A DNA stretch of 13,205 nucleotides from a virus (taxonomy: Duplodnaviria > Heunggongvirae > Uroviricota > Caudoviricetes), in the IMG/VR virus record IMGVR_UViG_2671180849_000011, one strand, 5' to 3'. Every line of letters starts with the position of its first letter. Positions within the stretch are counted from its first letter, which is position 1. Under the pieces are notes generated by a model that ran no database searches, was not told where the DNA came from, and worked only from the letters and a program-made list of their open reading frames with translations. The position numbers and the translations under genes are program-made. This document shows positions 1-13,205 of the stretch, piece after piece.

Positions 1-88
1 CCCCCTGGGCACCGGACCCGCCTCAAAGGTCGGATCATCACAATTGGCGGGGCGATTTTATAGTCGCTTTAAGGTTTATAGACCGGAG

Positions 89-118
89 TTGACTTACCTT
101 CCGGCAACCTGCTAACAT
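89..118 (+). promoter_or_regulatory. candidate sigma70 promoter (TTGACT - 18 bp - TAACAT)
   Basis: -35 TTGACT at 89-94, 18-bp spacer, -10 TAACAT at 113-118; a 10-bp inverted repeat CCTGCTAACA (108-117) / TGTTAGCAGG (142-151) overlaps the -10 and could be an operator. Confidence 0.4.
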
Positions 119-124
119 TAGTCT

Positions 125-215
125 CGCGAGAGGTTGATTTTTGTTAGCAGGTTTTGCCCCGCATCAAAAGGATACCGGAGAAGAGCCCCTTTGTTAACAC
201 TTAGGGGCTTTTTTC
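125..215 (+). ncRNA. candidate small RNA of about 90 nt (promoter-to-terminator unit with no ORF)
   Basis: Predicted start about 125 after the -10; no ATG/GTG-initiated ORF before the terminator; 5' end GCGAGAGGTTGATTT (126-140) is antisense to leader elements at 8510-8527 and 9052-9069 of - strand mRNAs. Confidence 0.3.
184..215 (+). terminator. rho-independent terminator
   Basis: Stem AGCCCCT (184-190) / AGGGGCT (203-209), 12-nt loop, then T-run 209-214; sits just beyond the stop (266-268) of the convergent 708-aa gene. Confidence 0.6.
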
Positions 216-265
216 TTGCCTGGAGTTTATCCGGTCAGGCTAACTTATTGATTTAGATCACAATA

Positions 266-2392
266 TTAGAAAAGCTGGTTAGATTCCTGTGTGGCTTTCC
301 AATCCAACTGATCGCTGACTTCCTTCTGGATCACCCTGGCAATTCCACCCTCATCGATGGTTATCTCCCATTTGCCGGAAATCTCACCTTGTGGAACTAC
401 ATTAACCTGAGCAGGTTGATAGCCACCATTCTGAATAGCCGTACCAGTGCTAGGAGTAGGACGTGACGGGCTAATTGTTGGATATGGATTAAAGGAAGCT
501 CCTTTGCTGATGTAGCTATGGTTATAGGCCCCTGGCTTGGTCATAGCATCCTGCTCATCACTGAGAAGGCCTTTAGATTTAGCCCACTCCCCGAACTGAT
601 CAGCCTTGCTTTGCATCCATCCTCTGAACTTCTCACCTACCGTCTTAGCGCCAAGTGCGCCAGCGACACCAACACCCACACCTGCGGCACTGCCAGCGGC
701 TAATGCTGTTGTTGGGCTTCCAGCGACTGCCCCGCCAGCACCCTTAACGAGATTGCCCAGACCTGGAATCTTGCCTATCAGAGAAATCAGTTGGGTGACA
801 AGTGAAACAAATCCGGTTAGAGGGGAAAGCAGTGTAGTAATAACTTTCAGACCAGCTAAGCCGACTACCAATTTTCCGATAAGCTCGCCAACCTCTGATC
901 CGGTCATGCCGAACTCTTTAGCCTTGACCTCGATATATCCCTTAGCAAAGCCTACCCAATACATGATCTCCCGCATGGCAGCTCCGACTGCCTCACCAAA
1001 CTGTTTTGCCGCGCTCCCGCTGCCGTCCATATCAGTGGTGAGGTCTTCGAAGATGGAGATCAGAGATTCAGATAAGCTAATAACGCCATCTGCAGGATCC
1101 ACAACACCCATAAATTGAATCGCCAGCTCGTTAAAGCTGTTTTTCATGCGCTGCATTGCTACTTCTGGCTGTTTCATGGATTCAGCAAAAGCTTTAGTTT
1201 CTTTTGCAGCACCCCATATTTTCACCAAAGAAGGAAGTAGCTTGTCCAGGGTGATTTTGCCATCTTTAAGGGCTTTATCGAATTCCTGGGCATTCTTGAT
1301 GATTCCGGCATCAATAGCGGCCTGTTGGAAGTCCTGTTGTGAGCCTGCAAAGGCTTCTGACAGTTGGCCCCGCAGCTCTTCAGCCATAACTTTTCCCTTT
1401 GAAGCCATTTGTTGGACCGCAACAAGCGCCCTGTTCTGTTGCTCACCAGTAGCACCCACTGAGCGGCCTTTAATAGCCATAGCCTCAAAGAGAGCCTGCT
1501 TATCAGATTCCTTCATGGTGGGGGTAGCTGCAGCAAAGCGCATGTAGCCCCCTTGCATCTCCCGCTCATCCATCCCATAGGTGTAGGCTGTGTTCTTGAT
1601 AAAAGCCATCTGCTGATCAGTCTTGGCTTTATCATCCTTGTTCTGTGCCATCAAACCGAAGTAGGCACTGTTGCGATCTGCAAGGCTACCCATAGCACCA
1701 CTAACAGCACGCTGAACACCCCAGCCAGCGGCAGTAAGGCCAATGGCTATCTTGCCTAGTGTGGAGTTGATTTTGCCCAGGTTGTCATGCACCTTGCTGG
1801 CACCTGATGCCAGTTTATCCAGTCTGCTCTGAAATTTTCCGGCCTCTACTGTTGCCATCTTCATTTCAGATCTGAGCCGGGCCATTTTCTGATTATAGGT
1901 CTGCAGGTTAATAGCCCCTTTAGCATAATCAGCATTAACTCTCTGGATTCTGGATTGGAACTGAGCAACCAGGGAGCCATCAAACATGCTGCTGATTCGT
2001 GCACTGTTGGCCCCTACACGGGCCTTTCTGTGCTGAACATCTCCAACACTACGATCTAACAGTTTTTGTTGTCTGGCGGCCTCTCTGGCTTGCTGCTGAT
2101 AGAACTTGCGCATAGAGGAGAGCTCCGGATTATTGCCCCCGGTCAGACGGCTAACAGCCTGAGCACGTTGTTTCTTCTGTGCTCTGGCGATCTGCTCTTC
2201 CACCTTAGCGCGTGTTCTTTGTGTTCTGAGCACAGCCTGATTAGATTTAAAATCAGCTTTAGCTATATCGTCGGTAGCTTTCTTCCAGGATTTTTTATAA
2301 TCCTCAAGCCGTTTAACTTCTTTTCGCCAGCTGGATTTATCAGAATCCCAGTAAATAACGTTTGTTAGTCTGGCGATTTCCTTCATTGCCAT
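266..2392 (-). CDS. tail tape-measure-like protein (708 aa)
   Basis: Long ORF; N-terminal Q/R/A/K-rich predicted coiled coil; central segment (ALVAVQQMASKGKVMAEELRGQLSEAFAGS...) that I read as tape-measure-like; Gly/Ala/Val-rich hydrophobic stretch typical of tape measure proteins; RBS GGCGAGGTG before ATG at 2392; translationally coupled to the upstream gene. Confidence 0.55.
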   Translation of the reverse strand: MAMKEIARLTNVIYWDSDKSSWRKEVKRLEDYKKSWKKATDDIAKADFKSNQAVLRTQRTRAKVEEQIARAQKKQRAQAVSRLTGGNNPELSSMRKFYQQQAREAARQQKLLDRSVGDVQHRKARVGANSARISSMFDGSLVAQFQSRIQRVNADYAKGAINLQTYNQKMARLRSEMKMATVEAGKFQSRLDKLASGASKVHDNLGKINSTLGKIAIGLTAAGWGVQRAVSGAMGSLADRNSAYFGLMAQNKDDKAKTDQQMAFIKNTAYTYGMDEREMQGGYMRFAAATPTMKESDKQALFEAMAIKGRSVGATGEQQNRALVAVQQMASKGKVMAEELRGQLSEAFAGSQQDFQQAAIDAGIIKNAQEFDKALKDGKITLDKLLPSLVKIWGAAKETKAFAESMKQPEVAMQRMKNSFNELAIQFMGVVDPADGVISLSESLISIFEDLTTDMDGSGSAAKQFGEAVGAAMREIMYWVGFAKGYIEVKAKEFGMTGSEVGELIGKLVVGLAGLKVITTLLSPLTGFVSLVTQLISLIGKIPGLGNLVKGAGGAVAGSPTTALAAGSAAGVGVGVAGALGAKTVGEKFRGWMQSKADQFGEWAKSKGLLSDEQDAMTKPGAYNHSYISKGASFNPYPTISPSRPTPSTGTAIQNGGYQPAQVNVVPQGEISGKWEITIDEGGIARVIQKEVSDQLDWKATQESNQLF

Positions 2393-2395
2393 CTC

Positions 2396-2581
2396 TTACA
2401 CCTCGCCCTGTCTTAAAGATTTTGATAATGAAATAGCTCTTTTCAGGGCCTCTTTATCAATATTATATTTCTCCGCAAGCTCTTCGATTGAGAGGTCACC
2501 AGAGGAAGAAGCCCCGCCCTTAATGACGGGAGCATTGTTATCACTTTTTAATTTTTGATAAATCTTTTCGTAGGTATTCAT
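2396..2581 (-). CDS. hypothetical small protein (61 aa) with helix-turn-helix-like segment
   Basis: ATG at 2581 one nt after stop of the upstream gene (TGA-T-ATG); its stop TAA 2396-2398 lies 3 nt before the tape-measure ATG; segment LSIEELAEKYNIDKEALKRAI looks HTH-like. Confidence 0.45.
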   Translation of the reverse strand: MNTYEKIYQKLKSDNNAPVIKGGASSSGDLSIEELAEKYNIDKEALKRAISLSKSLRQGEV

Positions 2582-2582
2582 A

Positions 2583-2966
2583 TCATTTGCCTTTGCGTCT
2601 TAGTGGACACTTATCGCCAATAGTCCACACAAAAATATAATGGCGCTTGCTTTCAGCTTTAGGATTTAATAATTCTTTATGCAAATATCCGGCTGACAGC
2701 ATTTGATCGACCAGGTTTTTCACTCTTTGCCCTTCCTCAAACGTTTGTGTTTTGAAATAGAGATTTGGAAAGTTTTGGCCTGTATATTTTCCATCTTCAT
2801 ATAAGCGGGTGCATACCCAGCGACATAAATCATCATCGTTAAAATCACTAACGTGTGGTTTATCCTCACTGCTAAATAACGCCTGTTTAAAACGGGAGTA
2901 TTTAAACTCCCCATCTTCCAGGAAATCACCCTCATCGAATTCAACTATCATTTCTTCAATATTCAT
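2583..2966 (-). CDS. hypothetical acidic protein (127 aa from second ATG; 129 aa if ATG 2972)
   Basis: ORF in track; SD AAGGA is 7 nt before ATG at 2966; D/E-rich N-terminal half; occupies the position where tail assembly chaperones usually sit but no slippery heptamer seen. Confidence 0.5.
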   Translation of the reverse strand: MNIEEMIVEFDEGDFLEDGEFKYSRFKQALFSSEDKPHVSDFNDDDLCRWVCTRLYEDGKYTGQNFPNLYFKTQTFEEGQRVKNLVDQMLSAGYLHKELLNPKAESKRHYIFVWTIGDKCPLRRKGK

Positions 2967-3010
2967 AGGCATATCCTTTTAGATAAACATGAAAAGTAAG
3001 ATAAATAAAG

Positions 3011-3040: not shown

Positions 3041-3484
3041 TCATTCAAGATTTACCAGTTTGAGAGGCTTCACCGCCTGCAGCATGGCCTGCATCATTCC
3101 TACGCTTATTTCGAAGAGGTCTGCCATGTTTTGAAGGCTGGCACCTTCTGCCTCGATCATTGATTTGGAGAGCGCCGCGATCACGAATCCATCTTTGGCG
3201 TTATCCCACATGCTGATAAGAGGATCCTCACCGTGCTGGCGCATAAGGTCCTGAATCATCCACAGGCGCATTGCCATAACCACCAAATCGACATAAAAAA
3301 CATCACCATTGGCGGACTTGCATTCAGCAAAAGCGTGGTGTCTGTGTTTTAAGAAGTGCTCTTTGTCACGGGTAAATGCCAGGGTGTTGGTAAACTTGCC
3401 ATCTAAAAGATCCTGGCGAACTTTTGAATCTTCAGCGTCGATAGCTTTGATAACCTGGGATAATAATTTAGCGATTTGAGACAT
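3041..3484 (-). CDS. hypothetical protein (147 aa; track ORF extends to 3514)
   Basis: SD AAGGA 7 nt before internal ATG at 3484 (MSQIAKLL...); predicted helical protein with no recognisable motif. Confidence 0.5.
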   Translation of the reverse strand: MSQIAKLLSQVIKAIDAEDSKVRQDLLDGKFTNTLAFTRDKEHFLKHRHHAFAECKSANGDVFYVDLVVMAMRLWMIQDLMRQHGEDPLISMWDNAKDGFVIAALSKSMIEAEGASLQNMADLFEISVGMMQAMLQAVKPLKLVNLE

Positions 3485-3572
3485 TTGGAATTCCTTAAAA
3501 TTTATATGAGCCATCCGGCATATTTACCGGACGGCAGAATCAATAACTTGCGGCATATGTGAAGGCTATAAG

Positions 3573-4058
3573 CTATTTGCGCTGCATTGCTTTCCGGACT
3601 TTATTGCTGTGGCGGCGGTAGATGAATATAAATTCGCGATAAGCACGACTACCGGGCTTAGGCAAACGTTGATTAAGCTCCTTACGTGGCAGGAGGTCGC
3701 TCAACAAGCCCCAGACATGAAAGCAGGTTACTTTTAATTCTTTTGCTATCTCTTCAATATTCATCCCGCAATTCCACATTAAAAGAGATTTGCGGCGGCG
3801 ATCTTCGAAGACATTTCTATCTCTATCTATTTCGTTATAGACACTGAGGGGAACTCGACACCGTGGATTCCAGGATTCTTCATATAGTTTTTGGACTTTC
3901 TCAAGTTTAACGCCTGTATATTCCGCCACGAATTCAGGGGTAAAGCCCTCGACTAATAAGTGTTTGGCCTGTCGTGTTGGTTGATCATCACTGGGGAGAT
4001 ATTTCTGCAGTGCTACCAGTTTTTCAAATTGGGAATCAGAAAGATCAGATTTGAACAT
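3573..4058 (-). CDS. hypothetical DNA-binding protein (161 aa) with two HTH-like segments
   Basis: ATG 4058 preceded by GGAG at 8-nt spacing; segments FTPEFVAEYTGVKLEKVQKL and GMNIEEIAKELKVTCFHVWGLL resemble HTH motifs; basic C-terminus. Confidence 0.5.
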   Translation of the reverse strand: MFKSDLSDSQFEKLVALQKYLPSDDQPTRQAKHLLVEGFTPEFVAEYTGVKLEKVQKLYEESWNPRCRVPLSVYNEIDRDRNVFEDRRRKSLLMWNCGMNIEEIAKELKVTCFHVWGLLSDLLPRKELNQRLPKPGSRAYREFIFIYRRHSNKVRKAMQRK

Positions 4059-4146: not shown

Positions 4147-4293
4147 TTAATAAGGGATGTCAGAATCATTTTCTTCATCTGCTGGATCTTCAGCTAACCA
4201 ACCACAATATTCTTCCCAATATGAAAAATGTTGTGATAGTTCATCTTCAAAATATTTTTCCTTTTCCAGGTAATAATCAAAATCGCCATACAT
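4147..4293 (-). CDS. small highly acidic aromatic-rich protein (48 aa), not in ORF track
   Basis: ATG 4293 with SD AAGGAAG at 6-nt spacing, stop TAA 4147-4149; translation MYGDFDYYLEKEKYFEDELSQHFSYWEEYCGWLAEDPADEENDSDIPY has 16 D/E versus 2 K and no R; fills the gap between two called genes on the same strand. Confidence 0.35.
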   Translation of the reverse strand: MYGDFDYYLEKEKYFEDELSQHFSYWEEYCGWLAEDPADEENDSDIPY

Positions 4294-4334
4294 TTTAAAC
4301 TTCCTTAAACAAAAAAATAAGATTATCAGTGTTT

Positions 4335-5231
4335 TTATTTAAACTCTAAAATGCCTTTTTTATTTTTTCTAACATTTCTCCACAATATTTCGGGATAATC
4401 TCCGCAGGTTTTATCTAACAATATTTCGAATCCCATCCCAATAAGCTTATTTGCAAAAATAAAAACAGGTCTGGTTAAATGCCAGTATTCTTCCGGTTTC
4501 CAGATTTCACCCTCTATTTTCCCTTTATGTTGGCTTACCTCTTCTGCGGTGTAAAAATCCTCCTGAATCTTTGACAAAAGGATCGGGCGACGTTTGTTTA
4601 AATCTTTGTATTTGCTTTCCCACAGTGATCGCATTATGCCTTTAGCCTCACTCTCACCCAGGACAATCCAGCCCCCATCGGTTACATCTTTCACAGGACG
4701 GCCCCGGCGTGGCTTGTCACTAACAGCGTTAATTTGAGGCGCTTTAGTGTCTTGGGTAGGCAATTGCACCACCTTAGCCTTTTTAGCTTGCTGTGTGGCT
4801 TGTTTTGGGGCTTCTTGCGGGTGTTTCTCTTCACTACCTGCATTGCTCATAGGTTGTATTCCTTGAGCGTCACACATTTTGCAGATTTGAGAAGGAGTAA
4901 TTAACAGTTTGTAATGATTAGATTTGCCTTTACTTTTAATTACTGAAATAAGCCCGGCATTTTCCAGAGTTTTGATAGATTCAATGATTTTTCTATCACT
5001 CACACCACATATTTTTGCTAAGGTCTGCTCTGAGATAAATATTTCTTGCCCGTTTAAATGAAAACCTGCCATTTTTCCATAGATTGTTACCTCTATCAGG
5101 TCTAAATTAAATCGCTCTTTTGTTTTTCCAGTCTTTTTATTAGCAATTGTTGTTGCTACTGGTTTATCAAAAGTATACTGAATGAGGCGTTCGAAATGGG
5201 GATTAAAAACCTCCCCGTAATTACTTGCCAT
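4335..5231 (-). CDS. winged-helix DNA-binding protein (298 aa), replication-initiator-like or antirepressor-like
   Basis: ATG at 5231 preceded by GGGGGA; N-terminal wHTH-like segment ISEQTLAKICGVSDRKIIESIKTLENAGLISV; central P/Q/K/A-rich linker with KPRRGRPVK (AT-hook-like); architecture recalls lambda O-type initiators (from memory, unverified). Confidence 0.5.
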   Translation of the reverse strand: MASNYGEVFNPHFERLIQYTFDKPVATTIANKKTGKTKERFNLDLIEVTIYGKMAGFHLNGQEIFISEQTLAKICGVSDRKIIESIKTLENAGLISVIKSKGKSNHYKLLITPSQICKMCDAQGIQPMSNAGSEEKHPQEAPKQATQQAKKAKVVQLPTQDTKAPQINAVSDKPRRGRPVKDVTDGGWIVLGESEAKGIMRSLWESKYKDLNKRRPILLSKIQEDFYTAEEVSQHKGKIEGEIWKPEEYWHLTRPVFIFANKLIGMGFEILLDKTCGDYPEILWRNVRKNKKGILEFK

Positions 5232-5244
5232 AGTTCCCCCACAG

Positions 5245-5460
5245 TTATTTATTAATGTTGTTGGTGTATTTAGCCAGCTCACGCTCAAGGCGGAGACGAT
5301 TCAGTTCTAAAATTGCCGCTTCAATGTGTGGATATTCTCCTTTGTGTTTACGAATAAATGCATAAACGGAAGTTTTTCGAAAGTTACCTTTAAGCACGTT
5401 CTCGACGATTTCGTCAGTAGTCCAGTTTACCAGCTGGCTTATCGGTCCGGTTTTAGCCAT
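5245..5460 (-). CDS. hypothetical small protein (71 aa)
   Basis: ATG 5460 preceded by SD AGGAGA at 7-nt spacing; stop 13 nt before the next start; basic, possibly DNA-binding. Confidence 0.5.
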   Translation of the reverse strand: MAKTGPISQLVNWTTDEIVENVLKGNFRKTSVYAFIRKHKGEYPHIEAAILELNRLRLERELAKYTNNINK

Positions 5461-5808: not shown

Positions 5809-6424
5809 GGAATCATTATCATTTAGGCGAGCTATAGGTACAAACAAGTCCACAGCAAAGGGGTAAGCATTATTAATGGCCCCTACCGTGTCAAAACCAA
5901 AGTCACTTATAGCATTTATGCAATAAGATTGTCAATGGCCCACAAGGGAGGGAGAGCACTTTTTGCCTTAAGCGCTCTAAAATCGATTCTAACGCGATTT
6001 AGAGGTCAGGTAATGCAATTGCACTACTCACACAAGTTAATGCAGCCAGAAGGCCATTTAGGGGCCTTATTTTCGATTTCTGAGCGTCCTGTTACGTGTG
6101 TGCATACACGGGCGCGCGGAATCCCTCGCTTAAACGGTCCGGATTGGAAACAGAAGTCTCTTATCCGGACTCCACATTATATAGCTACGTGCTATCGCAC
6201 TACGCTACCCACACACAGGCCGACGTAGTCGGTTTAGCTGTATAGCTAAAGTCACAGAGTGACCCACACACAGATTGCCTAAAGAGTCGCTAATGCTCTT
6301 TAGGCTTTCATTTGTGGGTTAAGCTTTTCCCTTAGAAAACCTTCCCCACTCTCTGATCCCTCCCCATTCCCCTTGGGGGGTTAGGGGGGGATCTGTTGTG
6401 TGATCTATTAATTTATCTATTAGA

Positions 6425-6645
6425 GTGAGAAATTTTCAGGGGTACTAGTGAGAAATCTTCGGTAGTAGTGGTGAGAAATTCTCAGGGGTGTGGGTAGGTA
6501 TGGTGGTTAAGTAGTGAGAAATCTTCAGTAGTTAGAGGCTGTGTATCATGGGGGCAATGACTGCAAAACGGGAAAGCATGACTGTATAAACACACAGGTG
6601 TGAAAATTCTTCACAGGTTAGCGACACCGGAAAAATCTTCAGTAG
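6425..6645. repeat. iteron-like direct repeats, six copies of about 18 bp (consensus GTGAGAAATCTTCAG(G/T)(G/A)G)
   Basis: Copies at 6425-6442, 6448-6465, 6471-6488 (exact 23-bp phasing), 6514-6531, 6598-6617 (degenerate), 6630-6645; preceded by G-run GGGGGGTTAGGGGGGG 6375-6390. Confidence 0.6.
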
Positions 6646-6655
6646 TGTCTATCTG

Positions 6656-6753: not shown

Positions 6754-7488
6754 ACCAACACCCGTTGATTTTATCAATAGCTATGTTGACCGGGCATCAT
6801 AAGTGTGGCCCCTGAGGCAGTCCATCCTTCCCTCACACAGGACAATGAATATATAAAGAACATGAAAGACTGTTCACACCAACACGCCGATAAATTGCCT
6901 GAAGAGGCTTACATGGGGTTATTGTTGTGTGGGTAATGGTGATCATGCTAACAGATTATGTTAATCAGATGTAAATTCCGATTTTGTGGTCTGCATGGAG
7001 CAAACTATACTGGTTAAATGATCAGGGGAATGACTACAAAACAATCAAAAATGTGGGATATAGCCATCTACACGTCTAATGTGCTGTGTGGGGTGTTAGT
7101 GCATGCTTACATGTAAGTCATTGATTTGAAGGGTTGGGAAAATTGCATTTAACATAATAGATCTTATCTACACTAATAAAGCGAACTACAAAATCTGATT
7201 TAAAAATCATGATCAGTGGGCACAGAATTTACGTACAGCCACCTGAATAAATAATGTGCACAACATACAGCAAAGCTTAAGAATTAACATAATAGCAACG
7301 TGGTCAGTAGTGGTGTGATATTTGAGAATTGTTAGAAGAAAAAAGGGAGGTGGGGGAGCGCCTGCCTGGCACCTCAGACGAGTTACCCATAAGCTCAAAT
7401 ACCGCTAATGGATATTTCTGACACCCACACCCAAGACCGCTTTCAGCACATAGCCATATAGCCACACAGGACCGCACAGGATGCAATT

Positions 7489-7887: not shown

Positions 7888-7946
7888 ATAAATAGGCATT
7901 AAATAGGGGATAAATAGGGGTTAATTGAGGGATAAATAAAAAGGGG
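7888..7946. repeat. five tandem 11-bp phased repeats (A/T)TAAAT(A/T)GGGG
   Basis: Units start at 7888, 7899, 7910, 7921, 7932 (exact 11-bp period); last unit merges into the terminator stem. Confidence 0.55.
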
Positions 7947-7967: not shown

Positions 7968-8498
7968 TCAGAACAGTTTTTTGCTTTTTCTCCAACTAAC
8001 GCCGCGTTTGCCTATGCTCAGCCAGCCGCCAGCGAATCGGGTACCTGCGGTAACACTAGCTCCCCTGGTACCTACATGTGCATAAATACCTGCTCCACTG
8101 CTACCACCGCTTCTACGGCTTTTTCCGCCATCGATATCAAGGAGAACACAGATCGCATTCCACCAAAAGCCGATCACCCATATTGCAAATGCTAAGCCTA
8201 AAACGCCCCAGGTGACCGCCCACCCTTCCAGACTAGTGGGGAAGTAGAAAGCATTGAGAACAGCATTTATAGGGCGGATCAGGAGAAAATCTATAAAACC
8301 AGTATCCACATGAAACGGTCCATTGCCGAACTTGCTACTGCCAATAAATAAGGTAGCAGGGTAAAAGAAGATAGCCATTGCCCAAGGGCCAATAAGCAGG
8401 ATAGTAGCCCCGAACTGTGCGGCCTCCTTAAAGAACATTTTTACTATTGCTTTAAAAAGCTTTTTGTTTTCTGATTCTTTATCTTTCTGAAATAACAT
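7968..8498 (-). CDS. polytopic membrane protein (176 aa) with Gly/Ser/Arg-rich C-terminal tail
   Basis: ATG 8498 preceded by AAGGGG; about four hydrophobic segments; own terminator; position and type fit a superinfection-exclusion or abortive-infection moron (inference). Confidence 0.6.
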   Translation of the reverse strand: MLFQKDKESENKKLFKAIVKMFFKEAAQFGATILLIGPWAMAIFFYPATLFIGSSKFGNGPFHVDTGFIDFLLIRPINAVLNAFYFPTSLEGWAVTWGVLGLAFAIWVIGFWWNAICVLLDIDGGKSRRSGGSSGAGIYAHVGTRGASVTAGTRFAGGWLSIGKRGVSWRKSKKLF

Positions 8499-8509
8499 GA
8501 CGGTACCCC

Positions 8510-8527
8510 TTTGCGAGAAGTTGAATT
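8510..8527 (-). promoter_or_regulatory. conserved leader element copy 1, 12 nt upstream of ATG 8498
   Basis: + strand TTTGCGAGAAGTTGA (8510-8524) identical to 9052-9066 at the same distance from a start codon; 13/15 match to 126-140. Confidence 0.5.
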
Positions 8528-8555
8528 TAGTTAATAACCTGTTGGACTGTTCCTA

Positions 8556-8816
8556 CTATTTATTCTTCTTAAATCTCCCATCCTCCTTTCTCTCGATATT
8601 GTGGTAGTCGGCATAGGCTTTCAGCCTTCTGTGCACGGTGGCGATCCCCACACCGAAGGTTTTAGCGATAACCTGTCGTGGTGTTCCCTCTTCAACCATC
8701 TTGTACATCTGTTCCGCTACATCCATTTGTGCGGCTATCTCCATTTGCTTTGCCTTAGCTTTAATTTCAGCTATCAGCTCTTCCCTCAGTCTCCTGATAT
8801 CTTTAGCCCCCGTCAT
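8556..8816 (-). CDS. small HTH DNA-binding regulator (86 aa)
   Basis: SD GAGGAG 3 nt before ATG 8816; N-terminal predicted coiled coil; C-terminal HTH TPRQVIAKTFGVGIATVHRRLK of the resolvase/Mor-like type (by eye). Confidence 0.6.
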   Translation of the reverse strand: MTGAKDIRRLREELIAEIKAKAKQMEIAAQMDVAEQMYKMVEEGTPRQVIAKTFGVGIATVHRRLKAYADYHNIERKEDGRFKKNK

Positions 8817-9336: not shown

Positions 9337-9365
9337 TTGACAATGTGAGTAAATACTGATATAAT
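9337..9365 (+). promoter_or_regulatory. perfect-consensus sigma70 promoter (TTGACA - 17 bp - TATAAT) with AT-rich upstream region
   Basis: TTGACA 9337-9342, exactly 17-bp spacer, TATAAT 9360-9365; AT-rich 9305-9335 (UP-element-like); faces the capsid genes. Confidence 0.65.
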
Positions 9366-9373
9366 ATACAGTA
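9354..9373. promoter_or_regulatory. LexA-type SOS box overlapping the -10 element
   Basis: TACTGATATAATATACAGTA matches the E. coli-type consensus TACTG(TA)5CAGTA at all ten flanking positions with an AT-only core. Confidence 0.45.
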
Positions 9374-9508
9374 TACCGTGAATCATTTAGCGAAGGTGGT
9401 TTACCGTATTTTCCTCCAAAGTAACGGCGACCAGGTAGCGGTGCCGCCTTATAAATAACACTACCCTGATCATCGTTGAGTGGTCGATTAATTCTCCTAT
9501 TGGGCTAG

Positions 9509-9517
9509 TTATCCACA
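9509..9517 (+). promoter_or_regulatory. consensus DnaA box TTATCCACA inside the capsid-operon leader
   Basis: Exact 9-mer; also the 5' arm of an inverted repeat CCACACAG (9513-9520) / CTGTGTGG (9539-9546). Confidence 0.3.
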
Positions 9518-9845
9518 CAGTTTTCTTTTGCGGGTTTTCTGTGTGGGTAGCTATCCCGAAAGGTATTTCCCCGCTGATGTGACCGCAGCCTGAACTGATT
9601 CGGGGGAGTGCCTTTCGTGATAGTGCTCTCTAGCAACCGTAACCATGCAGTGAACTATCAGCCAACTGTTGTTGGTTTTCCCCATATGGAATAGCCCCCG
9701 CTTGGACGGTGCGGGGCTATCTCCCTCTCCTTATATCAATCCCCCTTTAGATTTCCGGCATAACTTTTCGGCCCGAGCCTGTCGTGGTTTGAGAGGTTAT
9801 ACCTGAACCCTTTGAGGGGAGTTAATTTAAATCGCAGGTGATCAA

Positions 9846-10181
9846 ATGAGAGATATGACTATCCGCACACGCGGACACATCATTTCATACGCCGCAGATG
9901 AGCAATTTAGTATTCGCGACGTTGAAGTTAAAAACAAAGTTAAGACTGAGATTCCGGCTGGCACTGTTGTTGTGGTGACTGAGGCTGGCGAGGTTGAGAC
10001 CTTCGTTAAAGCAACGCACACCGGTAAAACTCCGCTGCTGGTTGTAGAACGTGCTGAAGTTGGTGATTCCTTTATCGTTGTTGCGAACAAAGGTTGCTAC
10101 ATCAATCCGGCCTATGTGGACAAAGACGGCTTAGCCGCTGTTGTTGCTGCCAGCAATGGCGATTTGCGTGTTGCACAATAA
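9846..10181 (+). CDS. head decoration-like protein (111 aa), assignment by position
   Basis: ATG 9846 preceded by AGGTGA at 5-nt spacing; strongly biased high-expression-type codons; immediately upstream of the capsid gene, as gpD is in lambda; no sequence similarity to lambda gpD recognised. Confidence 0.5.
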   Translation: MRDMTIRTRGHIISYAADEQFSIRDVEVKNKVKTEIPAGTVVVVTEAGEVETFVKATHTGKTPLLVVERAEVGDSFIVVANKGCYINPAYVDKDGLAAVVAASNGDLRVAQ

Positions 10182-10192
10182 GGAGGTTGAAA

Positions 10193-11239
10193 ATGGCTAA
10201 GAAAGAATTCGAAGTTCGCGATCTGTGTGGTCTGATTAAAGATATCCCGCCGGATAACATGATTATTTCTGCAATGGATATCTTCAACACTACTGCTCTG
10301 TGCAATACCTTTAAATTTGAATATGACAAAGTTCGCCAGGTGAAACAAACCGCTTTCGGTCAGTATCCGCGCTACGGTGAACAGATGGCTACCATTACCG
10401 CAGATGAGCGTGAAACGGGCACGGGTGATATGGCATTCACTGCCGCATCAAGTGCTATTTATCCTTCTGACTGGCAGGGTATCCGCGTTCCTGGCAAAGA
10501 TTCCGAAGAGAATCTAGAGTCTGTAACCGCTCGTCGTGTTATTCAGCTGGGCGAAGGCTTACGCCAGACCCACGAAGAAGCACGCCAGCTTGCTCTCTTT
10601 GAGAACAAAATTATCCTCACCAAGGGTAAAGAACTGAATGTGTGCGAACTGCTGGGCGCACAGCAAACCACTTCAGAAGTGGATCTAACTCAAGATATCC
10701 TTAAACAGCTGCAGGACCTGGTTGCACTGAGCAAGGTTAAACAGCGTGGTGTCGTTCGTGCCCTGCGTGGTTTCACCCTGTTCTGCCGTGCTGAACTGTT
10801 TACCGCTATTCAGACTGATGAACTGCTCCGTAAAGTGCTGTTGTTCGGCAATCAGAACATTACCGACAAAGGTCTGATGTTCCCTGAGGATATTCTGCCG
10901 GGCTTCCCGACCTTCCGCATTCCGGGCTTAGCCCTGCGTGTGGTGCAAATGGATAGTCTGCCAGAGAATACTGCTTATCTGGTCCCACAGTTCCAGCCGC
11001 ATGCGTTAGGCGATATGGTGGGCGTTTATACTCAATTTTTCGGCCCTTGCGCTCGCAACCTGAAGCTGGCAAACGGCGCTGCACGTGAAGCTTTCATGTA
11101 TATGGAAGAGTCCAGAGGCAAACGCGAAATCTTCGTTGAATCCTCTTATGCTTTCATGAACATGATGCCTGAAGTTGTGGTTAAAGTGAGTGTTAAAAAC
11201 ACCGCCGCCGCTGCTCTGGCAAAAGCCAAGGCTAAATAA
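10193..11239 (+). CDS. major capsid protein, lambda gpE-like family (348 aa)
   Basis: ATG 10193 preceded by AAGGAGG at 6-nt spacing (track ORF starts at an upstream TTG); strong codon bias; collinear matches to lambda gpE as I recall it (FKF near N-terminus, LPENT versus LPDNT, C-terminal V-S-V); size fits. Confidence 0.6.
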   Translation: MAKKEFEVRDLCGLIKDIPPDNMIISAMDIFNTTALCNTFKFEYDKVRQVKQTAFGQYPRYGEQMATITADERETGTGDMAFTAASSAIYPSDWQGIRVPGKDSEENLESVTARRVIQLGEGLRQTHEEARQLALFENKIILTKGKELNVCELLGAQQTTSEVDLTQDILKQLQDLVALSKVKQRGVVRALRGFTLFCRAELFTAIQTDELLRKVLLFGNQNITDKGLMFPEDILPGFPTFRIPGLALRVVQMDSLPENTAYLVPQFQPHALGDMVGVYTQFFGPCARNLKLANGAAREAFMYMEESRGKREIFVESSYAFMNMMPEVVVKVSVKNTAAAALAKAKAK

Positions 11240-11243
11240 AAGC

Positions 11244-11296
11244 AAAGGGAAGAGGTGGGAGATTGTGGGTAGGTCTTTCCCTCTTCCCTTTTTTGT
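11244..11296 (+). terminator. strong rho-independent terminator after the capsid gene
   Basis: 12-bp stem AAAGGGAAGAGG (11244-11255) / CCTCTTCCCTTT (11280-11291) then T-run to 11294; begins 5 nt after stop codon. Confidence 0.65.
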
Positions 11297-11328
11297 TATC
11301 CCCGTCTTAAGTTTTTGAGGTGTCTTTT

Positions 11329-11580
11329 ATGAAAATTGTTTTATACGGCGACCGTGACGACGTGCCTTTTGATATTATCCATATCGATGACGAGGATCTG
11401 CCGGAATTCCTGCGTATCTCCACATTTGCCGCCTGCTATGACGTTAGCCGCCAGGCTATGCATAAATACCGTGAATATAATAAATGCACCTGGGCCGAGA
11501 CTTTCGAACATTTTATTGCACGCAAACAAGCCCAGGACCGCAAAAAAGCCCTGAATGCGCATAATCGTTTTGCAAAATAA
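11329..11580 (+). CDS. hypothetical small protein (83 aa)
   Basis: ATG 11329 preceded by GAGGTG at 6-nt spacing (track ORF starts at GTG 11320); acidic N-terminus, basic C-terminus. Confidence 0.5.
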   Translation: MKIVLYGDRDDVPFDIIHIDDEDLPEFLRISTFAACYDVSRQAMHKYREYNKCTWAETFEHFIARKQAQDRKKALNAHNRFAK

Positions 11581-11654
11581 CGATAGATAGCCCTGTCTTT
11601 TTATCAGAATTCACACAGGGCCACCAAAAGATTCAATTTGGAGGCATGTTTAAT

Positions 11655-12458
11655 ATGGCTAGTGATGCTCTGACAGCTGCAAAACAAGCTGAGTCGAGAT
11701 CTCCTGCATTCACTGTTATGTGTGGGGGATATTCACAAAACAAAAATATAATGGATGGCTTCAACTATACCGATAATGTGGCTATCTTCTTTGACTCTAT
11801 CTCTGATGTCAGCTATTCGTTCCCTGTTGAGAAATCGAGCTATGCGGTCGAGGATGGCACCACCATGTCAGACCATGCCGTCATTAAAGATAAATCTGTC
11901 AGCTTTACGGGTATTATTACCTCTTCCCCTCACATTATCCGGAAAGAGAACTACATCGACCGGAACACTGATCCAGATAATCCCCGTGAATCTATGCGCC
12001 CTGCTGCCGCTGTTCAGGCACTTATGGAAATGAGAGACAAGCGCCAGCTAGTTAGCCTGGTAAGTGAAGATGCCGGACTCCTTGAGAACTTCATCATGAC
12101 GAAATGTGAAGTTAAGCGTAGCTCTTCCTCTGGCGACTGCATCACTATTGATTGCACTTTTGAAGAATTCCGCACCTTCAAGGTGAAGATGGTCGAAAAT
12201 GCCGGAGTTTTCACTAACAGTAAGAAGGTGAATAAAACACAGCAAAAGGGTGCTGTTAACAGTGCTAAAGAGGGTAGTAACGCTGGCAATGCTGCTACGA
12301 AATCTACCAGAGCTAAGCATCGCGGGGAATATGCACAGGGAGAGGCAGCGGGAAAGATTGCCGCAGGTGATAAGTCTGTCGTGTCGAATGAGTTCCACGA
12401 AACGATGATTGATAAGGCCAACATGTTGCTTGATGACATCACGGAGATCAACAAATGA
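11655..12458 (+). CDS. hypothetical protein (267 aa; 270 aa if ATG 11646)
   Basis: GGAGG 11640-11644 is 1 nt from ATG 11646 but 10 nt from ATG 11655; Ser/Thr-rich; stop overlaps next start (ATGA). Confidence 0.55.
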   Translation: MASDALTAAKQAESRSPAFTVMCGGYSQNKNIMDGFNYTDNVAIFFDSISDVSYSFPVEKSSYAVEDGTTMSDHAVIKDKSVSFTGIITSSPHIIRKENYIDRNTDPDNPRESMRPAAAVQALMEMRDKRQLVSLVSEDAGLLENFIMTKCEVKRSSSSGDCITIDCTFEEFRTFKVKMVENAGVFTNSKKVNKTQQKGAVNSAKEGSNAGNAATKSTRAKHRGEYAQGEAAGKIAAGDKSVVSNEFHETMIDKANMLLDDITEINK

Positions 12459-12913
12459 GTCCGAAAGTCCGTTGCACCATAGACAAGCGCATGATGGATA
12501 AGCTGCATAAAGAGCTCTCACAGATGGAAGGTGTAGCGGTTGGCTGGGATGACGGGAAACACTATAGCGGCCTGAATTACGCCACACTGGCAGCAATTCA
12601 TTCTGAGGGGTGGGGTGATCTGCCTAAGCGCTCCTTTATGGAATCTGCCCACGCAGCAATGCTCTATGAGAGCCTGAGACACACAAAAGCCCTGATTAAT
12701 GCAATCGTAAAGGGTGGGAGCTCTGAGGCCGTCAGGAAGCGAATAGGCAAGCGATACGCCGACATTCTGGAGACTATCCTGATTAGTGGGCAATTCAGCA
12801 ACAACAAGGTTTCCCCACAATGGGCAAGCTATAAAGGCTTCAATGATGCCATGCGCCACTATGATGATTTGATCGGTGCAATCAAATACTGGTCAAATGT
12901 GGGGAGAGGTTGA
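12455..12913 (+). CDS. hypothetical protein (152 aa), translationally coupled
   Basis: ATG 12455 overlaps upstream stop (ATGA); GGAG 8 nt upstream; no recognisable motif. Confidence 0.55.
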   Translation: MSPKVRCTIDKRMMDKLHKELSQMEGVAVGWDDGKHYSGLNYATLAAIHSEGWGDLPKRSFMESAHAAMLYESLRHTKALINAIVKGGSSEAVRKRIGKRYADILETILISGQFSNNKVSPQWASYKGFNDAMRHYDDLIGAIKYWSNVGRG

Positions 12914-12929
12914 AAAGAGGTAATAGTGT

Positions 12930-13005
12930 TCTTTTGAGGCCGTAGTGAGGCTAATCACGGTCCGGCTTAAAAAAGACAATAGGATGTCTTTTGAGGCCGT
13001 AGTGA
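12930..13005. repeat. two copies of a 19-bp direct repeat TCTTTTGAGGCCGTAGTGA
   Basis: Exact copies at 12930-12948 and 12987-13005 (57-bp spacing), similarity extends upstream (AATAG..); 17 nt after stop of the 152-aa gene. Confidence 0.5.
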
Positions 13006-13205
13006 TACACCACAAATCAGCCCCTTTCCACTTCTTTTCTCGCGATTGGTCCCTTGTGAGAATCCTTTATCAGGTATGCATTGTCCCGTGCATGAGCGGT
13101 CGATAGAGCCAGCCTCTTTCCCGGACTGGTTAGGATTTAGTGCGCTGAGAGAGCGCCGCTATCACTGTTAGCCTGTTTATCGTTGCCTGGTTTGTGCATC
13201 ACTGC

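What the first reader, a model, noticed from the sequence alone, without database searches (positions are those of the whole stretch)
9846..11296. Orphan capsid cassette: decoration-like plus gpE-like capsid gene without upstream portal, protease or terminase
Both genes have strong SDs and markedly biased codon usage, and are bracketed by the SOS-box promoter and a 12-bp-stem terminator, forming an insulated high-expression unit. In lambda-like genomes the decoration and capsid genes follow terminase, portal and protease genes in one operon; here the upstream side is regulatory DNA and leftward genes. That fits a satellite-like or domesticated element carrying its own capsid genes, or a rearranged prophage.
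Basis: partly seen in the sequence, partly recalled or inferred. Interest (0 to 1): 0.6.

Follow-up and report, generated by a model that had tools for sequence, protein, structure and literature searches.

The report
Plasmid-borne phage-satellite capsid cassette
The two capsid genes are real, but they sit on a complete 13-kb E. coli plasmid that also carries a few tail genes and no DNA-packaging machinery, so it is most likely an undescribed kind of phage satellite that borrows the rest of a virus particle from a large lytic phage.

Summary
Position 9846-10181 encodes a 111-aa protein whose predicted fold matches lambda gpD/phage-21 SHP decoration proteins. Position 10193-11239 encodes a divergent gpE-family major capsid protein (MCP). 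Both have Shine-Dalgarno sites and the highest codon adaptation in the window. A strong terminator follows, and a consensus promoter lies 475 nt upstream.

The context changes the picture. The window is a complete circular 13.2-kb plasmid, found in 7 of 5426 complete E. coli genomes and never on a chromosome. It has no portal, protease, terminase, tube, sheath, baseplate or lysis genes. It does carry a tape-measure protein, a tail-tube initiator (51% identical to rV5-like Vequintavirus phages) and a neck/tail-completion protein (45%), plus a Rep gene and iterons.

Four lineages with MCPs down to about 28% identical keep the same gene order. Three have circular 13.3-14.9-kb members and a fourth a 13.8-kb contig. 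All genes are under purifying selection.

Best reading: a plasmid-resident phage satellite that supplies its own head- and tail-size determinants. No helper phage or packaging has been shown. The LexA box is lost in half the close relatives. No paper on these plasmids turned up in nine literature searches.

The parts
9337..9365 (+). Consensus sigma-70 promoter, TTGACA-17-TATAAT with extended TG
   Evidence: 12 of 12 matches. Conserved in all 6 family members. Near-consensus promoters sit at the same relative place in lineages L012, L013 and L016.
9354..9373 (+). LexA-box-like palindrome TACTGATATAATATACAGTA overlapping the -10 hexamer
   Evidence: One mismatch to CTGT-N8-ACAG. The right arm is lost in 3 of 6 relatives, so its function is doubtful.
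9372..9845 (+). Long, highly structured 5' leader of the capsid operon
   Evidence: Free energy -168.7 kcal/mol, z = -5.7. Positions 9401-9600 are 99% conserved in the family. Equivalent leaders of 550-690 nt in L012 and L013 have z = -6.0. L016 has a 15-bp terminator hairpin inside its leader.
9846..10181 (+). Head decoration protein with a gpD/SHP-like fold, 111 aa
   Evidence: AlphaFold2 model with a 13-sequence alignment, pLDDT 87. Top Foldseek hits are phage 21 SHP, the Bas63, PhiTE, Sf14 and YSD1 decoration proteins and lambda gpD. pN/pS 0.12. Always directly upstream of the MCP gene in all lineages.
10193..11239 (+). Major capsid protein, a divergent member of the lambda gpE (Phage_cap_E) family, 348 aa
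   Evidence: PHROG 29 at 5.5e-21. 17 of 18 aligned homologues hit PF03864. The profile hits phi92 gp124 and the PhiTE MCP at about 1e-53. pN/pS 0.11. CAI 0.51.
11245..11298 (+). Intrinsic terminator after the MCP gene
   Evidence: 12-bp outer stem plus 8-bp inner stem and a U-run, z = -5.1. Conserved in type in four lineages.
11320..11580 (+). Small conserved protein of unknown role, 86 aa (NCBI annotates 83 aa)
   Evidence: pN/pS 0.05, CAI 0.46. Homologue at the same position in L010, L012 and L016. No family hit.
11646..12458 (+). Dit-like tail-tube initiator
   Evidence: PF21821 at 2.3e-25. 51% identical to the 'tail tube initiator protein' of rV5-like phages. pN/pS 0.01.
12455..12913 (+). 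Neck / tail-completion protein, 152 aa
   Evidence: PHROG 222 at 7.9e-29. 45% identical to bas57_0011 of phage MaxTheCat. pN/pS 0.01.
12914..13205 (+). First half of an ultra-conserved non-coding element; it continues at position 1
   Evidence: 93-100% identical between lineages whose flanking genes are 66-84% identical. Motifs are shared with L012, L010 and L014. The + strand folds with z = -5.6. No Rfam match.
1..265 (+). Second half of the conserved non-coding element, ending in a + strand terminator at about 185-215
266..2392 (-). Tail tape-measure protein, 708 aa
   Evidence: PF20155 and PHROG 5255 at 4.6e-191. 26.5% identical to the rV5-like TMP. pN/pS 0.19.
2396..2972 (-). Two small ORFs (61 and 129 aa) in the position of tail assembly chaperones; unverified
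   Evidence: Position only. rV5-like phages have two small ORFs before their TMP. No sequence match.
3041..4058 (-). Two conserved proteins of unknown role (157 and 161 aa); the second has weak HTH / sigma-r4-like signals
   Evidence: pN/pS 0.12 and 0.24. The 161-aa protein is conserved in L012 (40%) and L016 (58%). Only weak family hits.
4335..5288 (-). Replication initiator (HTH_36, O-like / DnaD-like)
6423..6646 (+). Iterons: five repeats of 21-23 nt, the putative oriV
7968..8816 (-). 176-aa protein of unknown function and 86-aa HTH_7 regulator
   Evidence: pN/pS 0.63 and 0.09.

Best explanation
The window is a complete 13.2-kb plasmid that behaves as a phage satellite.

In the resting state it replicates through its own Rep protein and iterons.

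Its capsid cassette is a consensus promoter, a 475-nt structured leader, the decoration gene, the MCP gene and a terminator. The cassette is built for very high output. I infer that the leader holds expression back until a phage infects, probably by termination that must be overridden. In some members LexA may contribute.

When a large myovirus of the rV5/phi92 (Vequintavirinae) type infects, I propose four steps:
1. The plasmid's own MCP assembles small shells on the helper's portal. By volume scaling from lambda these would be about T=3, holding about 13.6 kb.
2. The plasmid's gpD-like decoration protein stabilises these shells, which fit 13-15 kb and exclude the 137-kb helper genome.
3. The helper terminase fills them with plasmid DNA. 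The recognition site is probably the ultra-conserved 0.5-kb non-coding element between the neck gene and the tape-measure gene.
4. The plasmid's tape measure, tail-tube initiator and tail-completion protein direct tail building from helper tube, sheath and baseplate subunits. Helper lysis then releases particles that carry the plasmid to new cells.

Shown: gene identities, completeness and circularity of the replicon, absence of the other virion genes, conservation of architecture and size, purifying selection, and kinship of the tail proteins to Vequintavirinae.

Inferred: helper dependence, the identity of the helper, small capsids, the packaging site and the role of the leader.
For: Complete circular replicon:
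- The window's end-to-start junction is contiguous in 5 relatives.
- It occurs in 7 of 5426 complete E. coli genomes, in 9 places, all on plasmids and none on a chromosome.
- MOB-suite types all five PLSDB records as non-mobilizable. Yet hosts include human, chicken, bovine and feral-pig isolates, with USA, Chile and South Africa among the recorded countries. Some transfer route must therefore exist.

Gene content:
- Structural genes present: decoration, MCP, TMP, Dit-like initiator and neck/tail-completion protein.
- The largest remaining ORF is 176 aa, so there is no room for a portal or a large terminase.

Link to rV5-like phages:
- Four proteins have homologues in the rV5-like phage MaxTheCat: Dit 51%, neck protein 45%, TMP 26.5% and MCP 24%.
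- That phage has the same decoration-then-MCP gene order.
- GC content is 44.6% for the plasmid and 43.6% for the phage.

Selection: pN/pS is 0.01-0.19 for all structural genes.

Conserved architecture and size:
- Four lineages keep the same synteny, with MCPs 27-81% identical to the window's. Three have circular members (L012 14.9 kb; L016-L018 13.3 kb) and the fourth is a 13.8-kb contig, L013.
- Among 56 Dit homologue clusters in 5.8 billion proteins, the longest contigs pile up at 13.2-15.2 kb and at 18-20.5 kb. Only two lie on larger contigs, of 60 and 92 kb. A size constraint is what a capsid would impose.
- Volume scaling from lambda gives 13.6 kb for T=3 and 21 kb for T=4.
- Satellite MCPs form one clade.

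No known defence system matches.

Precedents: a satellite-encoded MCP homologue redirects capsid size in SaPIbov5 (PMC8569155). A TMP in a satellite is reported only for EPIPs and proposed for PLE11 (PMC12822802).
Against: - No helper has been identified.
- rV5-like DNA is absent from all 5426 complete E. coli genomes, including the seven that carry the plasmid. This is expected for a lytic phage, but it means there is no co-occurrence evidence.
- No relative was found in IMG/VR viral contigs, so there is no evidence that the element is ever encapsidated.
- No small terminase, cos site or pac site could be identified.
- The MCP is only 18-24% identical to the rV5-like MCP, and it belongs to its own clade. 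Compatibility with a helper portal, scaffold and protease is therefore not evident.
- The closest tail proteins are only 45-51% identical, so the true helper may be an unsequenced relative.
- The motifs of the conserved non-coding element are absent from the rV5-like genome examined.
Confidence: 0.58

Rival explanations
1. Anti-phage 'decoy' plasmid. The divergent MCP, tape measure, tube initiator and neck protein are expressed on infection and poison assembly of rV5-like phages in a dominant-negative way. This protects the population without the plasmid ever being packaged.
For: - The tail-interface proteins are close enough to Vequintavirinae (45-51%) to co-assemble.
- Expression signals are strong.
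- Satellites and defence by assembly interference overlap in known systems, such as Tab and Tai (PMC10884400, PMC11364771).
- There is no evidence of encapsidation.
Against: - No PADLOC match.
- A decoy needs no decoration protein, no complete capsid module and no conserved replicon size. Yet size and synteny are conserved across four lineages.
- It does not explain how a non-mobilizable plasmid spreads among unrelated hosts.
- The two readings are not exclusive, since satellites usually also inhibit their helper.
Confidence: 0.15
2. Satellite of a different helper. The helper is an unsequenced temperate phage or phage-plasmid, SOS-inducible, rather than a lytic Vequintavirus. The LexA boxes synchronise satellite late genes with helper induction.
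For: - A LexA-like box overlaps the capsid promoter, and a perfect box CTGTATAAACACACAG sits at 6582-6597.
- The identities to rV5-like proteins are only 24-51%.
- Lineages L013 and L014 carry AntA-type antirepressor genes.
Against: - tblastn of the Dit protein against 72,556 plasmids found no phage-plasmid homologue. It found only the small elements and one rV5-like genome deposited as a plasmid.
- Against 50,697 phage records the best hits are all rV5-like, at about 51%.
- The promoter LexA box is lost in half the close relatives.
Confidence: 0.17
3. Decaying remnant of a phage-plasmid, or a rearranged or defective prophage, with leftover structural genes and no present function.
For: - Only a fragmentary set of virion genes is present.
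- The gene order differs from that of a phage.
Against: - Strong purifying selection on every structural gene, pN/pS 0.01-0.19.
- The same gene set and size are retained in lineages whose MCPs are only 27-40% identical.
- It is never chromosomal.
- Reading frames are intact, with optimised codon usage and expression signals.
Confidence: 0.04

Closest known systems
Capsid-forming PICIs (cf-PICIs)
   Same: Small elements (the three named here are 13-15 kb) that encode their own HK97-fold major capsid protein, build small capsids for themselves and take the rest of the virion from a helper phage.
   Different: By my recollection of their published descriptions (not re-checked here), cf-PICIs are integrated islands with an integrase. 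They carry their own portal, protease, head-tail connectors and small terminase, and they take only tails from the helper. This element is a plasmid. It lacks portal, protease and small terminase, and it carries tail genes (TMP, tube initiator, tail-completion protein).
SaPIbov5 Ccm (PMC8569155)
   Same: A satellite-encoded homologue of the capsid protein that changes the size of the capsid.
   Different: Ccm is a homologue of its own helper's capsid protein, and SaPIbov5 belongs to the phage-inducible chromosomal islands. Here the MCP is only 18-24% identical to the putative helper's MCP and has its own decoration protein.
Satellite phage P4 with helper P2
   Same: Can persist as a plasmid. 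It makes a small capsid for an 11.6-kb genome and has a decoration-like stabiliser, Psu.
   Different: P4 encodes no capsid protein and no tail proteins. It reshapes P2's gpN with the external scaffold Sid. No P4-family hits were found here.
PLE (Vibrio cholerae, helper ICP1), PICMI and MiniFlayer: satellites of virulent phages
   Same: They parasitise strictly lytic helpers, as is proposed here for rV5-like phages.
   Different: PLE and PICMI are integrated and encode no MCP. A TMP-like protein has only been proposed for PLE11 (PMC12822802). MiniFlayer is a free virulent satellite of Streptomyces.
EPIPs of Mycolicibacterium (preprint PMC12822802)
   Same: Satellites reported to encode both a major capsid protein and a tape-measure protein.
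   Different: EPIPs also carry a small terminase, a scaffold protein, adaptor and stopper proteins and a serine integrase. Their host is an actinobacterium. There is no sequence relationship.
Autonomous plasmid acting as an inovirus satellite (cited in PMC12282955)
   Same: According to that review, the only plasmid shown to be a phage satellite.
   Different: Its helper is a filamentous phage. I did not read the primary paper, so its gene content was not compared with this element's.

Membership tests
Phage_cap_E (lambda gpE-like HK97-fold major capsid proteins, PF03864) | Significant match of the protein itself to the Pfam model | tested here: not met
   The window's MCP gives no PF03864 hit even at E <= 1.
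Phage_cap_E (lambda gpE-like HK97-fold major capsid proteins, PF03864) | Homology to bona fide members (transitive or profile-based) | tested here: met
   17 of 18 aligned homologues hit PF03864, best E 5.7e-40. These include satellite MCPs 38-40% identical to the window's in that alignment. PHROG 29 hits at 5.5e-21 over residues 3-346. The profile hits the solved MCPs of phi92 and PhiTE at about 1e-53.
Phage_cap_E (lambda gpE-like HK97-fold major capsid proteins, PF03864) | HK97 fold of the protein and assembly into an icosahedral shell | not tested
Shell assembly needs an experiment.
gpD/SHP-type head decoration proteins | gpD/SHP-like fold | tested here: met
   The model has pLDDT 87. Foldseek against PDB returns SHP (1td0), lambda gpD and the Bas63, PhiTE, Sf14 and YSD1 decoration chains, with probability 0.93-1.0 and TM 0.50-0.60. 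The top BFVD hits are annotated head decoration proteins.
gpD/SHP-type head decoration proteins | Sequence membership in a curated decoration family | tested here: not met
   No Pfam or PHROG hit. No BLASTP similarity to the rV5-like decoration protein. No PDB sequence hit.
gpD/SHP-type head decoration proteins | Gene directly upstream of a gpE-type MCP gene | tested here: met
   True in the window, in all four satellite lineages and in the rV5-like phage.
gpD/SHP-type head decoration proteins | Trimer binding at the capsid's three-fold sites | not testable with these tools
   Needs cryo-EM or biochemistry.
Phage satellites (general) | Lacks a complete virion gene set and so cannot form particles alone | tested here: met
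   The whole 13.2-kb replicon has no portal, terminase, protease, tube, sheath, baseplate, fibre or lysis genes.
Phage satellites (general) | Own replication module | tested here: met
   Rep (HTH_36, O-like) plus five iterons. It exists as a plasmid in 7 genomes.
Phage satellites (general) | Packaged and transferred in particles made with helper-phage proteins | not testable with these tools
   Indirect support only: size clustering and kinship of the tail proteins to Vequintavirinae. No relative was found in IMG/VR.
cf-PICI | Integrase-mediated chromosomal integration; own portal, protease, connector proteins and small terminase | tested here: not met
   None of these genes is present, and the element is never chromosomal.
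P4-like satellites | Sid, Psu, Delta, alpha primase-helicase and integrase core genes | tested here: not met
   No matching Pfam or PHROG families in any ORF.
LexA (SOS) regulon promoter | CTGT-N8-ACAG box at the promoter, conserved among relatives | tested here: inconclusive
   In the window the box has one mismatch and perfect outer TACTG/CAGTA arms. The right arm is lost in L001, L006 and L009. Much of the match is the extended -10 element itself.

The most novel reading that the evidence does not exclude
These 13-15-kb E. coli plasmids, and a related 18-20-kb class, are a widespread and so far unrecognised family of plasmid-resident phage satellites that parasitise virulent Vequintavirinae-type myoviruses. 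They supply the size-determining parts of both head (own MCP plus decoration protein, giving a mini-capsid) and tail (own tape measure, tube initiator and tail-completion protein). Portal, terminase, tube, sheath, baseplate and lysis functions come from the helper. Late genes are gated by a long structured leader RNA. An ultra-conserved 0.5-kb non-coding element serves as the packaging signal or as a regulatory RNA.
Probability: 0.4. Interest if true: 0.88.

Novelty: new variant of a known kind. Interest (0 to 1): 0.76.

Why it matters
- Transfer of 'non-mobilizable' plasmids is an open question. [quoted passage not shown] These plasmids offer a concrete, testable E. coli case.
- They would be a satellite of rV5-like phages, for which my literature searches found no report. 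rV5-like phages are virulent coliphages. A resident satellite could reduce their yield and move plasmid DNA between strains.
- Mechanistically it would be a new division of labour. The satellite brings its own capsid shell, decoration protein and tail ruler but no portal or packaging motor. That raises questions about portal-MCP and scaffold-MCP compatibility across 20% sequence identity.
- It also yields two unexplained conserved RNA/DNA elements worth study.

Tried and rejected
- **Nucleotide search of the cassette against 50,697 phage records:** no match.
- **Rfam, at gathering and at E-value thresholds, and tRNA search:** nothing meaningful.
- **Single-sequence AlphaFold of the 111-aa protein:** failed, pLDDT 37. 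It worked only after divergent homologues were collected.
- **BLASTP of the 111-aa protein against the rV5-like decoration protein:** nothing.
- **24-nt near-identity between window 7317-7340 and a non-coding region of phage MaxTheCat:**
  - It is not present in IMG/VR.
  - A database-wide blastn of the whole non-coding region gives nothing.
  - It was not among the segments that blastn aligned with lineage L016.
  - I treat it as probably chance.
- **Motifs of the conserved intergenic element:** absent from the rV5-like genome.
- **rV5-like portal-to-MCP DNA against 5426 complete E. coli genomes:** no match.
- **MCP-profile scans of IMG/VR and of GTDB species representatives:** no relatives.
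- **PADLOC:** no defence system.
- **Alignment of the 129-aa ORF with its supposed L012 counterpart:** unconvincing, so the 'tail assembly chaperone' label rests on position only.
- **Nine literature searches, including one by accession number:** no paper on these plasmids was found.
- **'Rearranged prophage' and 'decaying remnant':** rejected on circularity, plasmid-only occurrence, purifying selection and deep synteny.
Full report
**1. The observation**

The two genes exist as described. ORF 9846-10181 encodes 111 aa. The capsid gene starts at the ATG at 10193 and ends at 11239, giving 348 aa.

The capsid gene has a textbook AAGGAGGT Shine-Dalgarno site, and the first gene has AGGTGA. Codon adaptation to E. 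coli is 0.48 and 0.51. The 14 other ORFs of the window score 0.16-0.38; only the neighbouring 86-aa ORF, at 0.46, comes close. The Sharp-Li weights were typed in from memory.

The terminator after the capsid gene has a perfect 12-bp outer stem, an 8-bp inner stem and a U-run (-28.4 kcal/mol, z = -5.1).

A perfect consensus sigma-70 promoter, TTGACA-17-TATAAT with TG, lies at 9337-9365. A LexA-like palindrome, TACTGATATAATATACAGTA, overlaps it.

**2. Family assignments**

*Capsid protein.*
- It hits PHROG 29 'major head protein' at 5.5e-21 over its whole length.
- On its own it does not reach the Pfam Phage_cap_E model. However, 17 of 18 aligned homologues do, including satellite relatives 38-40% identical to it in that alignment.
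- A profile of the alignment hits the solved capsid proteins of phi92 and PhiTE at about 1e-53.
- It is therefore a divergent gpE-family capsid protein.

*The 111-aa protein.*
- It has no sequence-level family.
- A single-sequence model failed.
- After divergent homologues were collected, AlphaFold2 gave pLDDT 87.
- Foldseek then returned phage 21 SHP, lambda gpD and the decoration chains of Bas63, PhiTE, Sf14 and YSD1. It also returned annotated head decoration proteins in BFVD.
- 'Decoration-like' is therefore correct.

**3. What the window is**

The cassette has no nucleotide match in 50,697 phage records. It matches five small E. coli plasmids of 13.2-13.7 kb, plus a 39.6-kb record that holds three copies.

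Seven of 5426 complete E. coli genomes hold it, at nine places, all on plasmids. The junction of window end to window start is contiguous in five relatives. The 13,205 bases are therefore one complete circular replicon. There is no flanking genome in which a portal or terminase gene could hide.

The replicon contains:
- the capsid cassette;
- an 86-aa conserved protein;
- a Dit-like tail-tube initiator (PF21821);
- a 152-aa neck/tail-completion protein (PHROG 222);
- a convergent 708-aa tape-measure gene preceded by two small ORFs;
- two conserved proteins of unknown role;
- a Rep initiator (HTH_36) and five iterons;
- a small HTH protein and a 176-aa protein of unknown function.

The largest unassigned ORF is 176 aa, so portal, large terminase, sheath and baseplate genes are absent. 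MOB-suite types the plasmids as non-mobilizable. No PADLOC defence family matches.

**4. Relatives among phages**

Against the phage collection, the capsid protein, the tape measure and the Dit-like protein all find rV5-like Vequintavirinae first. These are lytic myoviruses of about 137 kb. Identities are 24%, 26% and 51%.

A whole-genome comparison with phage MaxTheCat found four homologous pairs:
- tape measure, 26.5%;
- MCP, 24%;
- tail-tube initiator, 51%;
- the 152-aa protein against bas57_0011 in the neck region, 45%.

That phage also has a decoration gene directly before its MCP gene, and two small ORFs before its tape measure. GC content is 44.6% for the plasmid and 43.6% for the phage.

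Among 72,556 plasmids, the Dit protein finds only three kinds of record:
- the small elements themselves;
- one rV5-like genome deposited as a 137.5-kb 'plasmid';
- a 20.7-kb plasmid from the same pooled cattle sample.

No classical phage-plasmid has a homologue.

**5. Evolutionary conservation**

Within the close family, pN/pS is 0.12 (decoration), 0.11 (MCP), 0.19 (TMP), 0.01 (Dit) and 0.01 (neck protein).

An exhaustive HMMER search of 1.84 billion representative proteins found only 31 relatives of the MCP. The two closest, at 43% and 30% identity, lie in loci with the same order: decoration, MCP, small ORF, Dit.

Full-length elements of three further lineages were recovered:
- L012, 14.9 kb, with a 30-nt terminal overlap indicating a circle;
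- L013, 13.8 kb;
- L016-L019, 13.3 kb; the three Logan contigs L016-L018 have 30-nt terminal overlaps, and the index lists the gene in 56 blocks of the collection, 50 of them with 10-20-kb contigs.

All have the same architecture, although their proteins are only 24-92% identical to the window's.

The satellite MCPs form one clade in a neighbour-joining tree, and the rV5-like MCP is not their nearest neighbour.

Dit homologues in 5.8 billion proteins fall into 56 clusters. Their longest contigs pile up at 13.2-15.2 kb and at 18-20.5 kb, and only two lie on larger contigs, of 60 and 92 kb.

Scaling capsid volume from lambda (T=7, 48.5 kb) gives 13.6 kb for T=3, 21 kb for T=4 and 123 kb for T=13. 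This is arithmetic, not evidence of capsid geometry.

**6. Regulation of the cassette**

The promoter is conserved in all six close relatives, but the right arm of the LexA box is lost in three of them. SOS control is therefore not a family trait. Part of the match is simply the extended -10 element.

Between the promoter and the first gene lies a 475-nt leader that folds far better than shuffled sequence (z = -5.7). Its core, 9401-9600, is 99% conserved.

Lineages L012, L013 and L016 have no alignable leader sequence, or only a 63-nt alignable segment in L016. Yet each has a near-consensus promoter 500-690 nt upstream of the decoration gene. The L012 and L013 leaders are equally structured, at z = -6.0. 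L016 has a 15-bp terminator hairpin inside its leader, and L013 a 19-bp one.

A terminator with a purine-rich GGGAGG-type stem follows the MCP gene in all four lineages.

The conserved design is: strong promoter, long structured leader, decoration gene, MCP gene, terminator. I infer a gate in the leader, probably termination that must be overridden on infection. This resembles the lambdoid pR'-tR' arrangement in logic only. That step is inference.

**7. Interpretation**

The data fit a plasmid-resident phage satellite better than any alternative:
- It cannot make particles alone.
- It keeps a coherent subset of virion genes under strong selection.
- Its size is held constant over deep divergence.
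- Its tail-interface proteins are recognisably Vequintavirinae-like.
- It spreads among unrelated E. coli hosts without any conjugation function.

The subset it keeps is striking. The shell and its cement set head size. The tail ruler is kept together with the two proteins that, by general knowledge of tail assembly, sit at the two ends of the tape measure.

Weak points:
- no helper has been identified;
- there is no evidence of encapsidation;
- there is no recognisable packaging gene or site;
- the MCP is very distant from the putative helper's.

A decoy or interference function is a live alternative and could coexist with the satellite role. A different, perhaps SOS-inducible, helper cannot be excluded. 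A decaying remnant or a rearranged prophage is contradicted.

**8. Comparison with known systems and novelty**

The nearest analogues are the following:
- cf-PICIs have their own capsid genes, but also their own portal, protease and small terminase. They are integrated and have no tail genes.
- SaPIbov5 Ccm is a satellite-encoded MCP homologue (PMC8569155).
- P4 has a plasmid state and a small capsid, but no MCP.
- PLE, PICMI and MiniFlayer have virulent helpers.
- EPIPs combine an MCP with a TMP, but also have a small terminase, a scaffold protein and an integrase (PMC12822802).

That preprint notes that tape measures are otherwise unknown in satellites. [quoted passage not shown]

Nine literature searches, including one by accession number, found no description of these plasmids. 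One strain paper merely lists the 39.6-kb record.

I classify this as a new variant of a known kind: a putative new satellite family. It remains unproven until transfer is shown.

Noticed in passing
window 12964-13205 and 1-261 (between the neck gene and the tape-measure gene): About 0.5 kb of non-coding DNA is the most conserved part of the plasmid. It is 93-100% identical between lineages whose flanking genes are 66-84% identical. It contains a duplicated motif TCTTTTGAGGCCGTAGTGA and blocks shared with lineages L012, L010 and L014. The + strand folds with z = -5.6 and ends in a terminator at about 185-215. There is no Rfam family. The 19 compensatory pairs all come from a single divergent sequence. 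It could be a packaging signal or a large non-coding RNA.
   Followed up: partly
window 9372-9845; L012 4481-5028; L013 4961-5650; L016 about 9456-9955: The long 5' leaders ahead of the capsid genes are very strongly structured in the three lineages folded (z about -6), although their sequences do not align. Two of them contain terminator-like hairpins. This suggests a conserved RNA-level gate on capsid expression.
   Followed up: partly
window 6582-6597, next to the iterons at 6423-6646: A perfect LexA box, CTGTATAAACACACAG, sits beside the iterons. The CTGTAT...ACAG arms are kept in 5 of 6 relatives while the spacer varies. It is followed by a second palindrome, GTGTGAAAATTCTTCACAG. This suggests SOS control of replication or of an unannotated transcript.
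   Followed up: partly
window 7317-7340 versus phage MaxTheCat 91576-91599: A 23-of-24-nt identity (GATATTTGAGAATTGTTAGAAGAA) to a 2.5-kb gene-free region of the rV5-like phage. It is identical in all six close plasmids, but the segment was not among those aligned with lineage L016, and the motif is absent from IMG/VR. The pairwise E-value is 0.003. It may be chance.
   Followed up: partly
window 401-800 (C-terminal third of the tape-measure gene): This is the least conserved stretch of the plasmid, at about 59% column identity among close relatives and with indels, inside an otherwise conserved gene. It may be a hypervariable region of the tape measure.
   Followed up: no
L014 (CP057043.1, 20.7 kb) and L015 (CP057073.1, 137.5 kb): A second class of small E. 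coli plasmids, 18-20.5 kb, carries Dit-like, tape-measure-like and neck genes plus AntA, an HNH endonuclease and an integrase, but no recognisable MCP. One such plasmid and a complete rV5-like phage genome deposited as a 'plasmid' come from two colonies of the same pooled cattle-faeces sample, RHB39.
   Followed up: partly
L002 (NZ_CP043822.1, 39,610 bp): This record is three tandem copies of the 13.2-kb unit. The copies differ by frameshifts in the MCP, Dit and TMP genes. It is either an assembly artefact of a small plasmid or a real multimer.
   Followed up: no
window 7888-7938: An 11-nt unit, ATAAATAGGGG, is repeated 4.6 times just upstream of the 176-aa ORF of unknown function. It could be a partition site or an operator array.
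   Followed up: no
window about 90-215: A promoter-like TTGACT-17-TAACAT is followed about 95 nt later by the terminator. This could make a small RNA convergent with the 3' end of the tape-measure gene. The equivalent place in L001 gives a weak sub-threshold ctRNA_p42d match (E = 0.011).
   Followed up: no
window 4201-5400 (Rep gene and neighbours): The replication module is much more variable than the structural genes (72-81% column identity, pN/pS 0.6). In lineage L016 part of it is 91% identical at the DNA level while its neighbours are not alignable. This indicates mosaic exchange of replication modules.
   Followed up: no
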